Shown here: in pieces, positions 14,916 to 36,393 of the stretch
Position numbering within the stretch: the stretch's first letter is position 1
Layout: the number at the start of each line of letters is the position of its first letter
Source of the DNA: a virus
Taxonomy: Duplodnaviria > Caudoviricetes
DNA: 37,525 bases
Reading direction: 5' to 3' (one strand)
IMG/VR virus record: IMGVR_UViG_3300002307_000121
Span: 1 to 37,525 of that record
Position numbers and translations under genes: made by a program
The notes under the pieces: model-generated
What the model saw: the letters and a program-made list of their open reading frames with translations, nothing else
The model's database searches: none
What the model was told of the DNA's origin: nothing

Positions 14916-15566
14916 ATGTGTATTTATTGCGGCACTAAGAACTATCGTAAAATCTATGAGAATCATTATGGACCCGTCCCCCGAGATTCTGATGGAAGAA
15001 AACACGAAGTTCATCACGTTGATGGTAATCGAACAAATAACGACCCTACTAATCTAGTATGTGTGTCTATTAAAGAACACTATGACATTCATTATGCTCA
15101 ACAAGACTGGGGAGCCTGCCTAAGAATCGCAGAAAAAATGAAGCTGCCGCCGGAAGAACTTTCGGAACTTGCTAGAAAAAATGCAAACAAGTTAGTATCA
15201 GAAGGGACTCACCCTTTCTTAGGAGGTTCCGTTCAACGAAGGTCCAATGCTAAACGAGTCGCCGAGGGTACTCATAACTTTTTAGGTAGCGATACATCAA
15301 GTAAGGTGCAACAGGCCCGTGTTCAGAATGGAACTCATCATTTTCTAAACGGAGAACTTTCTCGGAATACGCAACAACGACGAATCAACGACGGTACTCA
15401 CCACTTTTTAGATAGTGAGTACCATAGAAGAAACGCAAAAAAGCTATTAGACGCCGGAAAGCATCCCACCCAATATAAATGGACATGTCCGCATTGCAAT
15501 AAGAGTGGTCAAGGTAAAAGCTTATATACTAGGTGGCACGGTGACAACTGTAAAGGTAAGATTTAA
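14916..15566 (+). CDS. Free-standing HNH endonuclease (paralogue 1)
   Basis: EVHHVDGNRTNNDPTNL...EH HNH motif, GTHxFL repeats, C-terminal CPHC...RWHGDNC; AAGGAG RBS; TAAATA at 14848. Confidence 0.88.
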   Translation: MCIYCGTKNYRKIYENHYGPVPRDSDGRKHEVHHVDGNRTNNDPTNLVCVSIKEHYDIHYAQQDWGACLRIAEKMKLPPEELSELARKNANKLVSEGTHPFLGGSVQRRSNAKRVAEGTHNFLGSDTSSKVQQARVQNGTHHFLNGELSRNTQQRRINDGTHHFLDSEYHRRNAKKLLDAGKHPTQYKWTCPHCNKSGQGKSLYTRWHGDNCKGKI

Positions 15567-24649: not shown

Positions 24650-24724
24650 TGGAGCGAACGATGGGGGTCGAACCCACGACCTTCTGGTTGGCAACCAGAT
24701 GCTCTACCACTGAGCTACGTTCGC
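24650..24724 (-). tRNA. tRNA-Gly(GCC)
   Basis: Cloverleaf; anticodon arm TCTGG-TTGCCAA-CCAGA; U73; encoded CCA. Confidence 0.95.
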
Positions 24725-24731
24725 ATTACTC

Positions 24732-24805
24732 TGGAGCGTATGAAGGGAATCGAACCCTCGTCATCTGGTTGGAAGCCAGAAGCTCTACCATTGAGCTACA
24801 TACGC
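24732..24805 (-). tRNA. tRNA-Gly(TCC)
   Basis: TCTGG-CTTCCAA-CCAGA; U73; CCA. Confidence 0.95.
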
Positions 24806-24898
24806 AATAATCTTGCTACTCATTTGCTAGACTTGCGAGTTGTGCAAGTCACCTCTGACCCGAAGCATCAGTAGGAGGTTAGTAGCTACCTAAGTAAC

Positions 24899-24977
24899 TG
24901 GTTGCGGGGGTCGGATTTGAACCGACGATTTCCGGCTTATGAGACCAGCGAGGACAACCTGACTCCTCTACCCCACG
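24899..24977 (-). tRNA. Initiator tRNA-fMet(CAT)
   Basis: CAT anticodon; C1:A72 mismatch; ...CGCAACCA end. Confidence 0.88.
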
Positions 24978-24980
24978 ATA

Positions 24981-25111
24981 TAAACTATTTAGAAGAACAC
25001 ACAAATATGAAGAATGTTGACGCATTTTCAATTGCAGTCCGTCAAAACCACCGACTCCTTGTTATCGCACAGGGTTAGCTTTTGCCGATGTGTGTTCATC
25101 AAAATAGTCTA
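24981..25111 (-). ncRNA. Candidate ~130-nt structured RNA
   Basis: ~22-bp imperfect terminal helix enclosing two hairpins; no ORF. Confidence 0.5.
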
Positions 25112-25132
25112 ATATTATTTAGTCTATTTCTT

Positions 25133-25965
25133 ACAAAGCATGAGATTACTGCTTTAAACGAGTGACTTTGGTCATTACCGAATCCCTTGCGAGGACCGTT
25201 CTACCGTTATCCACTAACGCCTTTTACGGTCAGTTAGTATCACTCAATGCTGCCTTTTTGAGAGTCTGGCGTTTGACTCGTCGCATATGTCTACTCGACC
25301 ATCTATCTTTCGCTAGCCTTGCGGGCTATTCAAGGTCGCTAAACCCTTACGCTTTCTTTCCGATCAATCAGTTCAGCCTTGCGAGCCTTCCTGAACCACA
25401 TTCCCTTGCGAGTGTGGTATTAAGCATCTTTAAACATATACCGGAGCAGTCTTTCGCTTTTGTGTGACAAACCAGGAGTTGAACCTAGATCGACAGTTCC
25501 ATAAACTGTTGCATTACCATTATGCAATTTGCGAACCTACCAAGATGTGCTGCTCCAGTTGCTCCATACCTTGTTAGATACAGAATACAACACACCCCAT
25601 GTCTTTTGCCTTGCGGGCTACTCAACCATACTTTACGATTCCGGAGCAAGTGTCCTCCTTCTTCGCTTGTATTGCTATCTTGCCTTTCCTTGCGGGTCAG
25701 ACTCGATAACTACACGTTAACATTCAGTATTCGTCAGTTTGGCTGTACATCGTGAGAGCGCCAACCCTCTTATCTACTCACCGATTCGGCTCTGTAGACT
25801 ATCCCCTTCGGGACGACATACCTGACTTACTACTTACCGCCTTCCTACAGACGGCCCTTTCGGGTAGTTCGTGCTTGCATAGATGGACTCTTACGAGCGC
25901 AAGTGCGTAGGCTTTCTTGCTTTGACAGAGATTACTCCCTGCTACCCTAATGAGGCTATGCCCCC
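25133..25965 (-). ncRNA. Large ornate RNA, GOLLD-like (boundaries approximate)
   Basis: ~830 nt with no credible ORF; six C-GCAA-G plus C-GTAA-G and C-GAAA-G capped hairpins on the minus strand; embedded tRNA-like domain; own promoter; tRNA-array context. Confidence 0.75.
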
Positions 25966-25978
25966 AATTCTTATTCAA

Positions 25979-26050
25979 TTTTCAAAGAGCTAAGACAGAT
26001 AGTTTCTGTCTTGATAAATTCATTATATATATTCTTGCTACCATTGTCAA
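25979..26050 (-). promoter_or_regulatory. Consensus sigma70 promoter + hairpin + boxA antitermination leader
   Basis: TTGACA-N17-TATAAT (26050-26022); hairpin AAGACAGA/TCTGTCTT; GCTCTTTGAAAA (25990-25979). Confidence 0.75.
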
Positions 26051-26146: not shown

Positions 26147-26674
26147 ATGTGTATTTATTGCGGTACCAAGTACTACAGAAAAATTTATGAGAACCACGTG
26201 GGTTCTATTCCCAAAGACGAAACCGGTCGATCATATGATATTCATCATAAAGACGGCGATCATTCTAATAATCACTACACTAACCTAGTCGCACTAACCA
26301 TTAAAGATCACTATGACGCACATTACGCTAATAATGATTGGGCGGCTTGTCTAATCATGTCAGCAAGAATGTCGCTTTCAGCGAAAGCTAAATCCGAACT
26401 AGCTAAACAATCAGTGGCTAGACAACTCACTAATGATAAACACGCTTGGAAGGGTGGCGATCATCAGCGAAACCTTGCTTTGAAGCGTTCACTTGATGGT
26501 TCTCATCCTTTTTTGGGAGGAGAAATACAACGAGAGCATAATTTGCGCCGAGTAGCAGATGGTTCACATCCTTTCACAAAAAAACAAACATGTGAGCATT
26601 GCGGAAAGCAAGCTAACTTAGGAATGTATGCTCGGTGGCACGGAGATAACTGCAAACACAAACATCAATCGTAA
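26147..26674 (+). CDS. Free-standing HNH endonuclease (paralogue 2)
   Basis: MCIYCGT.YYRKIYENH, DIHHKDGDHSNNHYTNL, GSHPFL repeats, CEHC...RWHGDNC. Confidence 0.88.
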   Translation: MCIYCGTKYYRKIYENHVGSIPKDETGRSYDIHHKDGDHSNNHYTNLVALTIKDHYDAHYANNDWAACLIMSARMSLSAKAKSELAKQSVARQLTNDKHAWKGGDHQRNLALKRSLDGSHPFLGGEIQREHNLRRVADGSHPFTKKQTCEHCGKQANLGMYARWHGDNCKHKHQS

Positions 26675-29737: not shown

Positions 29738-30370
29738 ATGTGTATTTATTGTGGAACCACCAAATATCGTAAGATTTATGAGAATCATATAGGTCCCATA
29801 CCAAAAGATGGTGAGGGTAGAACCTATGAGATTCATCATAAGGATGGGAACAGCAAAAACAATCACCCGGAAAACTTAATTGCATTATCTATTCAAGAAC
29901 ACTATGATGTTCATTATAAACAAGGTGATTGGGGTGCGTGTGCCTTTATTGCACAGTATAGATTAAATCACACTAAAGAAGACATTAGCGAACTTGTTAG
30001 GAGAGCCAACTTAGCAAGGGTAGCGAAAGGTACACATCCGTTTATGCGTAGAGCAGACGGAACTTCCATTGCGTCAGATAGAATGAAGGATGGTACTAAT
30101 CCATTCCTAACAATCACCGCCGAGAAAATGAAGGATGGGACACACTACTTTCTTAGTGAAGAACATTCTAAAAAATCAAGGTCGCGCCAGCTTTCTCTTA
30201 TAGAAAATGGGACACACAACTTTCTTGTTGAAAAAGAATGTCCTCATTGTCAATATAAAGGTCAATCAGTTATCATGGCTCGTTGGCACTTTGATAACTG
30301 CAAACTGTCACCTAACTATGTGCCAAAACCTAAAAGAAAATACAAGAAGCGGAAGAACCAGACCACCTAG
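29738..30370 (+). CDS. Free-standing HNH endonuclease (paralogue 3)
   Basis: MCIYCGTTKYRKIYENH, EIHHKDGNSKNNHPENL, GTHxFL repeats, CPHC...RWHFDNC. Confidence 0.88.
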   Translation: MCIYCGTTKYRKIYENHIGPIPKDGEGRTYEIHHKDGNSKNNHPENLIALSIQEHYDVHYKQGDWGACAFIAQYRLNHTKEDISELVRRANLARVAKGTHPFMRRADGTSIASDRMKDGTNPFLTITAEKMKDGTHYFLSEEHSKKSRSRQLSLIENGTHNFLVEKECPHCQYKGQSVIMARWHFDNCKLSPNYVPKPKRKYKKRKNQTT

Positions 30371-34466: not shown

Positions 34467-34668
34467 ACACTATCGTATTTGATAAAAGAAAGGGGCGCAA
34501 GCTACCTGAGACTTATTAGTATTATGTAGCTATAGTGCTGTCATTTAAGAACTAAGCGTTTGTCTATGATCCGCGCACTTCACACAGTCGCCGTTCCCCC
34601 GTATTCGTTATCGTCTATTTTCTCAATATAAGATAGTTTTAAGTGAATGTCAACACCTATTTTATAGC

Positions 34669-34759
34669 TGGTGTGCCACCTCGGATTCGAACCGAGATCG
34701 TCCCCTAATCTGGGCTCCGGGATATAAATCCGGCCGCTCTACCGTTGAGCTAATGGCAC
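34669..34759 (-). tRNA. tRNA-Ile(TAT) with long variable arm
   Basis: CCGGA-TTTATAT-CCCGG; ~20-nt variable region; A73; CCA; 91 nt. Confidence 0.75.
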
Positions 34760-35449: not shown

Positions 35450-35587
35450 ACTTGTTACGCTAACACTGACTCGAACTGTAAAGGGATCGAACCTAAACCT
35501 GGGTCCTTGCCAAGGTCCCGTGCTACCGCTACACTACCTGTTCCTTCAATGCTTGCAATCATAGGAATCAGTGTTAGCGAAACAAGT
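35450..35587 (-). ncRNA. tRNA-like element (GGC anticodon loop) enclosed in a 20-bp helix, no CCA
   Basis: D-arm GTGT-AGCGGTA-GCAC, arm GGACC-TTGGCAA-GGACC and T-loop GGTTCGATCCC, all inside ACTTGTTTCGCTAACACTGA/TCAGTGTTAGCGTAACAAGT. Confidence 0.6.
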
Positions 35588-35711: not shown

Positions 35712-36002
35712 TGGTATGAGCGGCGGGACTCGAACCCGCACGTCCAAAGGACACAAGATTTTCTTACCACTATAGCTTTCGCTACCGAATCGTTTGTGGT
35801 CTGGACTATACCTTCACCATAGCCAATGCTTTAGGTGCTCGCCGTCTAGTCTCTACACGTTCAAAGGTATTTCTACCTAAGCTTCGCTCGGTATTAGCAT
35901 TTGAAAGCCTTCACCGAATTTGACGAGTTCTACTCCGAGGATTTCTCCAAGGGCACTCAAATTGTTCAAGTCTCGGGCGTCTACCTATTCCGCCACGCTC
36001 AC
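35712..36002 (-). tRNA. tRNA-Leu(TAA) interrupted by a group I intron (exons 36002-35968 and 35762-35712)
   Basis: Joining the exons gives an 86-nt cloverleaf with CGAGA-CTTAAAA-TCTTG, long variable arm, A73 and CCA. Confidence 0.92.
35763..35967 (-). mobile_element. Self-splicing group I intron (IC3-like), 205 nt, no ORF
   Basis: P1 CTT/GAG with U.G pair; P AAATTCGGTGAAG; Q AATACCGAGCGAAG; R AGAGACTAGACG; S GAAGGTATAGTCC; terminal G. Confidence 0.9.
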
Positions 36003-36025: not shown

Positions 36026-36093
36026 TGTCAAAGAGCAGAGTGTGTTTCTCACTCTGTATATCTCTTTATACGACATATTAGGGGTAATGTCAA
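36026..36093 (-). promoter_or_regulatory. sigma70 promoter + hairpin + boxA leader of a tRNA operon
   Basis: TTGACA-N17-TATAAA; hairpin CAGAGTG/CACTCTG; TGCTCTTTGACA (36037-36026). Confidence 0.78.
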
Positions 36094-36100
36094 GAAGTTT

Positions 36101-36393
36101 TTTCACTGCTTACAGCCTGACTGGACTACTTGCGACTAGGGCGGGATCGCATCTCCGATTCTCTGACTCGGGGACTTCTCCCTCTGTCCTAAAATCTCGG
36201 ACCTTTCTCGTGCTGCAACCATCAGTAGTATCGCCGAAAGCAAGCGTTTTTCGCTATCGGTCGTCTACTGAACTTTCTAGTACCGTAATCTAACTTCAAA
36301 CATACTCATGGACAGTTTCGTTCAAGTTAAACGACTTGTTCCACTTTCAGAATGTTGTTATTCCGGCTGCCCAGCCCGTCTGTAAACAGTGAA
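36101..36393 (-). ncRNA. Candidate ~293-nt multibranch RNA
   Basis: 14-bp terminal helix TTCACTGTTTACAG/CTGTAAGCAGTGAA plus CTGGGC/GTCCAG; several internal hairpins; starts immediately after the tRNA-Trp CCA. Confidence 0.6.

What the first reader, a model, noticed from the sequence alone, without database searches (positions are those of the whole stretch)
25133..25965. ~830-nt GOLLD-like giant RNA with its own rRNA-style promoter
Seen: no credible ORF; at least eight GNRA-capped hairpins with strict strand bias (six CGCAAG); GTAATCTC near both ends; the only perfect TTGACA/TATAAT promoter in the window, plus boxA. Known: GOLLD RNAs are ~800 nt, phage-associated, lie beside or contain tRNAs, form RNA-only multimeric cages and have no established function. 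Inference: this is a GOLLD member or a new ornate class in a lytic jumbo phage, expressed like an rRNA.
Basis: partly seen in the sequence, partly recalled or inferred. Interest (0 to 1): 0.85.

Follow-up and report, generated by a model that had tools for sequence, protein, structure and literature searches.

The report
Phage GOLLD RNA carrying tRNA mimic
This is a full-length member of the known GOLLD family of giant phage RNAs, with an rRNA-style leader and a built-in tRNA look-alike that has lost its amino-acid-carrying end and whose anticodon loop changes fast among relatives, likely serving as bait for host tRNA-cutting defences; lab phages of Caulobacter carry the same design, so this can be tested.

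Summary
Confirmed: an ~830-nt GOLLD RNA on the minus strand (25966-25137). Rfam RF02032 matches the whole model at 204 bits (cut-off 150); 121 of 203 consensus pairs covary across 22 full-length relatives, 5' half included. Not a new class. The promoter is an ordinary phage sigma-70 type, but a hairpin-plus-boxA leader in rrn order is real (boxA in 14 of 23 relatives' leaders). Among 88 such elements CCA is present in 10, against 175 of 220 free tRNAs; near-identical scaffolds differ in anticodon in 21 of 28 pairs, against 3 of 46. Caulobacter phages phiCbK and Magneto carry GOLLDs differing mainly in this loop. Best guess (0.4): a tethered tRNA decoy against anticodon nucleases; a passenger is the main rival. 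Embedded and pseudo-tRNAs in GOLLD are in print, and this scan saw acceptor-less and permuted forms on other DNA (e1-8236422, e1-9747122). New member of a known kind.

The parts
26022..26050 (-). sigma-70-type promoter TTGACA-17-TATAAT (activity inferred)
   Evidence: same class before other phage genes
25992..26012 (-). boxB-like leader hairpin directly before boxA
   Evidence: 8 bp here; a hairpin of differing sequence in 16 of 17 boxA-bearing leaders examined (no shuffle control)
25979..25990 (-). boxA-like element (NusB/NusE site, inferred)
   Evidence: 14 of 23 unique leaders, background 1.6%
25137..25966 (-). full-length GOLLD RNA, about 830 nt (5' end set by the first conserved hairpin, not mapped)
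25599..25966 (-). variable 5' domain of GOLLD, outside the Rfam model, with covarying helices
25137..25598 (-). Rfam RF02032 match, model positions 1-416 of 416
   Evidence: 204 bits, E 2e-56
25464..25534 (-). tRNA-like element in the variable linker: D, anticodon and T arms, 5-bp inner acceptor helix, 2-71 mismatch, no CCA
25498..25504 (-). anticodon loop UUAUGGA (nominal anticodon AUG), a rare variant; commonest loop in relatives is CUCUUAA, Lys(CUU)
24650..24977 (-). downstream tRNA-Met, tRNA-Gly(UCC), tRNA-Gly(GCC); likely co-transcribed (no minus-strand terminator-like site between)

Best explanation
The region is a full-length GOLLD RNA gene with a hairpin-boxA leader and an acceptor-less tRNA-like element in its linker; it is likely transcribed by host RNA polymerase with Nus-factor help in folding, is predicted to assemble into a multi-copy RNA cage like other GOLLDs, and likely uses the tethered tRNA mimic as bait for host tRNA-targeting (anticodon-cleaving) defences. 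Steps shown here: family membership, covariation along the whole length, leader motifs, shape of the tRNA-like element, loss of its acceptor end, fast change and whole-cassette swapping of the element among relatives. Steps inferred: promoter use, Nus binding, cage formation, and the bait role. The frayed acceptor and missing CCA would keep RNase P and 3'-end enzymes from releasing or charging the element, so it would stay tethered in 10-14 copies per cage while its loop tracks whichever tRNA the host's nuclease cuts. Membership in GOLLD is about 0.98; the confidence given is for the bait mechanism.
For: Rfam full-model hit; 121 of 203 pairs with two-sided changes. Element present in 65 of 77 unique linkers of this clade. 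In 88 unique elements acceptor pairing falls from 0.94 (7-66) to 0.35 (2-71) and 0.49 (1-72); all seven pairs in 4 of 88 vs 142 of 220 free tRNAs; CCA 10 of 88 vs 175 of 220. Elbow bases kept: C56 87 of 88, A58 88 of 88, GG in D loop 83 of 88; anticodon-stem positions show 4-5 pair types each. Loop keeps U33 (73 of 82) and a purine at 37 (74 of 82) while 24 anticodons occur. Scaffold-matched pairs: loop differs at 0.48 per site vs 0.015 in the other loops; free tRNAs 0.034. The loop CUCUUAA, identical to the window's free tRNA-Lys(CUU) loop, recurs on 9 different anticodon stems. phiCbK vs Magneto: 3 of 6 differences in 927 columns fall in the 7-nt loop; the rest of the element is invariant in five Caulobacter phages that show three loop alleles. 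Whole-cassette swaps between bodies about 3% apart, e.g. L005/L006 and L049/L115. RNA-library contigs of relatives bridge the element (X8 record 29; X3 record 12). tRNAs as targets of anti-phage nucleases: PMC12409363 (passages), PMC10264068 (abstract).
Against: No binding or infection data. Cryo-EM places the linker inside the cage (PMC12286853 section 7), which a nuclease may not reach. In the papers seen, phage tRNAs beat nucleases by resisting cleavage and replacing the cut tRNA, not as decoys. The element is dispensable: 8 of 77 linkers lack it, including L035, whose leader is near-identical to L018's, and 73 loci of the wider GOLLD set gave none. The window's own loop and phiCbK's (G33, U37) match no ordinary tRNA, as relaxed selection would also give. 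Several close pairs show no loop change (L192/L129, L022/L115, L034/L036). Pairs are not independent (6 scaffold families, 5 with more than one anticodon), stems were found by a parser that demands pairing, and loci were collected with patterns from this clade. 10 of 88 elements keep CCA.
Confidence: 0.4

Rival explanations
1. Passenger or structural filler: a tRNA caught long ago in the linker is kept only as a compact, self-folding module; its acceptor end decayed so that the cage is not cut, and the loop drifts and recombines freely.
For: Element absent from 8 of 77 linkers and from most GOLLDs of other subtypes; 24 anticodons with no single identity; odd loops here and in phiCbK; a pseudo-tRNA in mycobacterial GOLLD gave no separate signal (PMC6582537 passages).
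Against: U33, purine 37, T-loop and D-loop signatures are kept; authentic Lys, Leu and Arg loops recur on different stems; loop change far exceeds local background in phiCbK/Magneto and L075/L093.
Confidence: 0.25
2. Processing handle or tRNA store: RNase P and 3' enzymes recognise the element and split GOLLD into 5' and 3' halves, or release a tRNA that is matured later ('inhibited storage').
For: Elbow conserved; 10 of 88 elements have CCA and near-complete acceptors; five circularly permuted, near-perfect-acceptor versions exist (L004, L121, L147, L149, L170); storage idea in PMC12990946 (passages).
Against: This element has U at +1, a 2-71 mismatch and no CCA; G at +1 in only 7 of 88; RNA-library contigs span both junctions; processing would not explain selection on the anticodon loop.
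Confidence: 0.15
3. Ribosome-directed mimic: the uncharged, CCA-less element docks in a ribosomal tRNA site to stall, store or redirect host ribosomes, without triggering RelA.
For: Elbow and U-turn loop are what the ribosome reads; ribosome pull-down with GOLLD is cited in PMC12286853 (passage; the source thesis was not seen).
Against: Anticodons follow no consistent codon logic: the commonest read AAG, CUA and AGA, and this phage uses AAG more than AAA (164 vs 113); non-U33 loops occur; element is dispensable.
Confidence: 0.15
4. A new class of ornate RNA, or an antisense coding region.
For: The 5' 370 nt lie outside the Rfam model and differ from the env-38 type as read in the paper's supplement; one antisense frame is open in 14 of 22 relatives.
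Against: Full-model GOLLD hit above cut-off; a divergent 5' domain is a described GOLLD trait; no codon phase or frame conservation.
Confidence: 0.02

Closest known systems
GOLLD RNA, Rfam RF02032; env-38 14-mer (PDB 9MEE) and S. agalactiae 12-mer (9L0R) as listed in PMC12990946
   Same: About 830 nt, conserved 3' domain, divergent 5' domain, variable linker after P14, phage tRNA array, tRNA in the linker.
   Different: Belongs to a lake/alphaproteobacterial-phage subgroup with its own 5' domain; the env-38 linker is a short AU-rich stretch while this one holds an acceptor-less tRNA mimic; cage size untested.
Mycobacterial GOLLD with embedded tRNA-Phe or pseudo-tRNA (PMC6582537 passages; Morgado 2020 only as cited in PMC12990946)
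   Same: tRNA-like gene inside GOLLD in a tRNA array, called pseudo and not seen as a separate RNA.
   Different: Here the defect is shown to be systematic (acceptor end only) and the loop hypervariable across 88 elements.
GOLLD of Caulobacter phiCbK-like phages (JX163858, JX100812 and others), annotated only as tRNA-Gly or tRNA-Lys
   Same: Rfam GOLLD hit 165 bits; homologous element with compensatory D and anticodon stems, 4-bp acceptor, no CCA.
   Different: GC-rich, different 5' domain; no boxA seen in the 120 nt printed upstream.
rrn leader nut-like site (boxB-boxA-boxC; PMC8632103, PMC5725501 passages)
   Same: Hairpin then boxA just after the promoter of a long untranslated, highly structured RNA.
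   Different: Phage-borne; present in 14 of 23 leaders only; boxC not looked for; Nus binding untested.
Nuclease-resistant phage tRNAs such as T5 tRNA-Lys(UUU) against PARIS AriB (PMC12409363)
   Same: Phage tRNA-shaped RNA varying at the anticodon arm.
   Different: Those are chargeable and replace the cut tRNA; this element is predicted not to be chargeable.

Membership tests
GOLLD (RF02032) | Match to the conserved 3'-domain covariance model above the gathering score | tested here: met
   204 bits vs 150, model 1-416
GOLLD (RF02032) | About 800 nt with a structured, divergent 5' domain | tested here: met
   about 830 nt; covarying helices in columns 1-430 of A1
GOLLD (RF02032) | Variable linker between P14 and the 3' domain, sometimes holding a tRNA | tested here: met
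   element falls in the model's unpaired linker
GOLLD (RF02032) | Phage or prophage context beside tRNA genes | tested here: met
   24 other ARAGORN tRNA calls, rIIA/rIIB, tail-fibre matches
GOLLD (RF02032) | Expressed as an abundant RNA | tested here: inconclusive
   relatives in 21 runs on record as RNA, share of words 0.22-0.28; contigs only, no strand, ends or level; this phage itself not shown present
GOLLD (RF02032) | RNA-only homo-oligomeric cage | not testable with these tools
   needs mass photometry or cryo-EM
ROOL / OLE / other Rfam large RNA | Match to their models | tested here: not met
   no such hit at gathering level in the window
Functional tRNA-His | 7-bp acceptor stem, G-1, GUG anticodon, CCA encoded or addable | tested here: not met
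   2-71 mismatch, U at -1, anticodon AUG, no CCA; His identity rules recalled
rrn-type nut site | boxB hairpin followed by boxA downstream of the promoter | tested here: met
   order per PMC8632103
rrn-type nut site | NusB/NusE binding and effect on folding or termination | not testable with these tools
   needs experiment

The most novel reading that the evidence does not exclude
GOLLD cages of this subgroup are reprogrammable multivalent tRNA decoys: phages fold them with the host's rRNA Nus machinery, load each subunit with an unchargeable, unreleasable tRNA mimic and swap or mutate its anticodon loop in an arms race with host anticodon nucleases; phiCbK and Magneto are a natural allele pair.
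Probability: 0.3. Interest if true: 0.85.

Novelty: new member of a known kind. Interest (0 to 1): 0.52.

Why it matters
GOLLD function has been open since the family was described, and the cryo-EM work left the linker unresolved. Three things here make it testable. The linker payload is under shape-preserving but identity-changing selection, which points to a partner that reads anticodon arms. The leader suggests Nus-assisted folding, which can be tested by one boxA mutation. Cultured phages of Caulobacter, Ruegeria, Mesorhizobium and Sinorhizobium carry GOLLDs that GenBank annotates at most as a tRNA, with natural loop alleles in otherwise 99% identical RNAs. As a sequence, the window's RNA is one more of at least 806 known GOLLDs (count from PMC12286853).

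Tried and rejected
New ornate class: rejected. Terminal GTAATCTC repeat: 5' copy not conserved. Unique rRNA-type promoter: same class drives protein genes. Functional tRNA-His(AUG): fails acceptor and CCA tests. Antisense ORFs: no family, no codon phase. Single-sequence folding is weak evidence: z -2.4 for the whole RNA, z -0.25 for the element alone. Codon-compensation logic for the element's anticodons: none found (16 ORFs of this window only). Read depth: in RNA run X4 the two GOLLD/tRNA bins hold 596 and 2957 against under 8 in the other 28 bins, while the DNA-like runs X2 and X23 also cover rII genes; these are summed contig depths of relatives in runs picked for holding GOLLD, so they are not used as an expression measure, and uncovered flanks prove nothing. 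No raw-read run was offered, so RNA ends and cleavage could not be seen. rIIA was found in 1 of 5 GOLLD-bearing records and 0 of the 2 complete ones, so similar GOLLDs sit in unrelated phages and their genome sizes do not date this one. Weinberg 2009 and Morgado 2020 were not held. Literature searches showed no paper on boxA leaders of GOLLD, on acceptor loss with loop hypervariability, or on GOLLD in phiCbK; only listings were seen for most hits. A search of the Nature 2025 supplements for Caulobacter and five accessions found nothing, but one file was unreadable, one too large, and the alignment archive may be held only in part, so phiCbK GOLLDs may already be in that alignment.

Full report
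Identity. Rfam 15 gives a full-model GOLLD (RF02032) match at window 25598-25137 on the minus strand, 204 bits against a cut-off of 150, E 2e-56; no ROOL, OLE or other large-RNA family reaches its cut-off in the window. The model covers only the 3' 460 nt. The 5' 370 nt align with relatives from viral and metagenome contigs. I aligned the window and 21 relatives (22 of the 27 unique full-length copies; three with wrongly placed starts and two near-duplicates were left out): mean identity 74%, 203 consensus pairs, 121 with a two-sided change in at least one sequence, spread over both halves (related sequences inflate such counts, no tree-aware test was run). The first conserved hairpin starts at 25966, giving about 830 nt. 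A conserved 3' and divergent 5' domain with a variable linker is how PMC12286853 (section 7 read) describes the family. Of 20 relatives checked by Rfam all 20 match GOLLD, 18 above the cut-off; the other loci were taken as GOLLD on motif patterns only.

CGCAAG is enriched on the RNA strand (6 vs shuffle mean 0.33) but 4 of 6 sites pair better as CGCAA pentaloops, as in the Rfam consensus. The 5' GTAATCTC is incidental. The region is non-coding by every test run, with one point against: an antisense frame is stop-free in 14 of 22 relatives, which the A-rich sense strand may explain (inference).

Leader. The promoter at 26050-26022 is the only perfect consensus, but six others one base off precede other genes, so it is the phage's ordinary strong class. 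What is rRNA-like is the leader: an 8-bp hairpin (26012-25992) directly followed by boxA (25990-25979). boxA lies 16-25 nt before the anchor in 14 of 23 unique leaders against 1.6% of random 118-nt draws, and a hairpin of differing sequence precedes it in 16 of 17 boxA-bearing leaders examined, three of them from a distant GOLLD subtype (no shuffle control). boxB before boxA is the rrn order, and Nus complexes there act as folding chaperones (PMC8632103 and PMC5725501, passages). Nus use here is inferred. The window has 8 boxA-pattern hits, all on minus, one of them before an intron-bearing tRNA, so the device is not unique to GOLLD.

The linker element. ARAGORN and Rfam call a tRNA at 25534-25464, inside the model's unpaired linker. 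It has intact D, anticodon and T arms, five inner acceptor pairs, a C-C mismatch at 2-71, no CCA and the loop UUAUGGA. In this subgroup 145 of 168 loci could be parsed, giving 77 unique linkers: 65 with such an element, 4 with a circularly permuted tRNA, 8 with neither. Over all loci, 88 unique elements were compared with 220 unique free class I tRNAs from the same loci (the free set may hold false calls and missed elements). Acceptor pairing from 1-72 to 7-66 is 0.49, 0.35, 0.73, 0.83, 0.93, 0.91, 0.94 in elements and 0.75-0.91 in free tRNAs; all seven pairs 4 of 88 vs 142 of 220; CCA 10 of 88 vs 175 of 220. The high pairing of the three arms is partly built into the parser, but the 4-5 pair types per anticodon-stem position and the kept C56, A58 and D-loop GG are not. 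So the elbow and anticodon arm are conserved and the acceptor end is lost. In 73 loci, largely of other subtypes, no element was found.

The loop. 24 anticodons occur among 82 seven-base loops; Lys(CUU) 22, Leu(UAG) 11, Arg(UCU) 7; U33 is kept in 73 and a purine at 37 in 74. For scaffolds within two differences, anticodons differ in 21 of 28 pairs and loops at 0.48 per site, against 3 of 46 and 0.034 for free tRNAs; by family, 5 of 6 vs 1 of 19. The window's element belongs to a family of 8 with five different loops. Some close pairs show block changes (L001/L023, L075/L093), others none (L192/L129, L022/L115, L034/L036), and whole cassettes are exchanged between bodies about 3% apart. CUCUUAA recurs on 9 different stems and equals the loop of the window's free tRNA-Lys(CUU). 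Only a few independent pairs show change above local background, so diversifying selection is suggested, not proven.

Cultured phages. BLAST found 22 records; phiCbK (165 bits) and Roseobacter phage DSS3P8 (151 bits) pass the GOLLD cut-off, as do Mesorhizobium phage Cp1R7A-A1 and Sinorhizobium phage Phosso. 18 Caulobacter records hold a phiCbK-type copy, annotated only as tRNA-Gly or tRNA-Lys. In the five examined, the element is invariant outside the loop, which has three alleles; against phiCbK, 3 of 6, 3 of 9, 3 of 14 and 1 of 48 differences fall in the loop.

Expression. 24 runs hold part of the stretch, 21 on record as RNA, in freshwater, river, lake and estuary samples, none above 0.28 of the words. 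Laid contigs from four RNA runs cover 25092-25979 and the neighbouring tRNAs. A 519-nt contig of run X8 spans 25142-25633 and a 274-nt contig of X3 spans 25295-25568, both across the element, so uncut molecules of relatives exist if these are RNA. Contigs give no strand, ends or level, and this exact phage was not shown to be in those runs.

Context. 25 tRNA calls (one is the element), rIIA/rIIB, tail-fibre and HNH genes. The closest relative (L018/L297, 88% over the RNA, 76% in rIIA) is syntenic and rated 9% complete at 33 kb, which implies a jumbo genome. Host and lifestyle are unknown; the best rIIA matches among cultured phages are only 37% identical.

Mechanism and standing. Cage formation is inferred from family (10- to 14-mers; PMC12990946 passages). 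I commit to a tethered tRNA decoy at 0.4, with passenger (0.25), processing or storage (0.15) and ribosome-binding (0.15) as rivals. The main objections are that the linker sits inside the cage in the solved structure and that the known phage counter-measure is a resistant, working tRNA. tRNAs and a pseudo-tRNA inside GOLLD are in print. Earlier notes of this scan report the acceptor-less and the permuted forms on other genomes; I had seen both before those look-ups and count them as no independent support. Papers: PMC12286853 abstract, passages, sections 7 and 8, supplement searches; PMC12990946, PMC6582537, PMC5725501, PMC8632103, PMC12409363 passages; PMC10264068 abstract; Weinberg 2009 and Morgado 2020 not seen. 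Verdict: real, a new member of a known family, with a leader and a linker pattern that give concrete experiments in a model phage. Interest 0.52.

Noticed in passing
window 36098-36393 (-): About 290-nt stretch right after tRNA-Trp, closed by a long terminal stem, folding z -5.9; no Rfam match at E<=1, none in cultured phages or in five related records. Candidate uncatalogued RNA, homologues not found yet.
   Followed up: partly
window 36002-35712 (-): tRNA-Leu(UAA) split in the anticodon by a group I intron (RF00028 at 35784-35977), with its own promoter near 36093 and a boxA-like motif at 36035; missed by ARAGORN. Same site as the cyanobacterial tRNA-Leu intron (recalled).
   Followed up: partly
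L004, L121, L147, L149, L170 (GOLLD linker): Circularly permuted tRNA in the linker: T arm, acceptor 3' strand with CCA (ACA in L147), short spacer, acceptor 5' strand, D and anticodon arms, with the GOLLD halves attached at the variable region. Would give a chargeable tRNA end tethered to GOLLD.
   Followed up: partly
L001 2202-2520, L002 3652-4038, L174 2038-2282: tmRNA genes (permuted in phiCbK and DSS3P8) lie within about 0.2-0.5 kb of GOLLD in several phages.
   Followed up: no
window 14916-15566, 26147-26674, 29738-30370 (+): Three related HNH endonuclease genes (phrog_12324) against the strand of their neighbours, one just upstream of the GOLLD promoter; the 26147 copy has no match in the syntenic relative L297.
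   Followed up: no
window 34669-34759 (-): tRNA with the rare UAU (Ile) anticodon and a long variable arm.
   Followed up: no
window 35472-35543 (-): Weak tRNA-Ala(GGC) call (33 bits) without CCA, overlapped by an inverted repeat in its flanks; likely a pseudo-tRNA.
   Followed up: no
window 34640-34470 (-): About 170-nt non-coding stretch between a promoter at 34653 and tRNA-Met, with G-rich and C-rich ends that could pair; no Rfam match.
   Followed up: no
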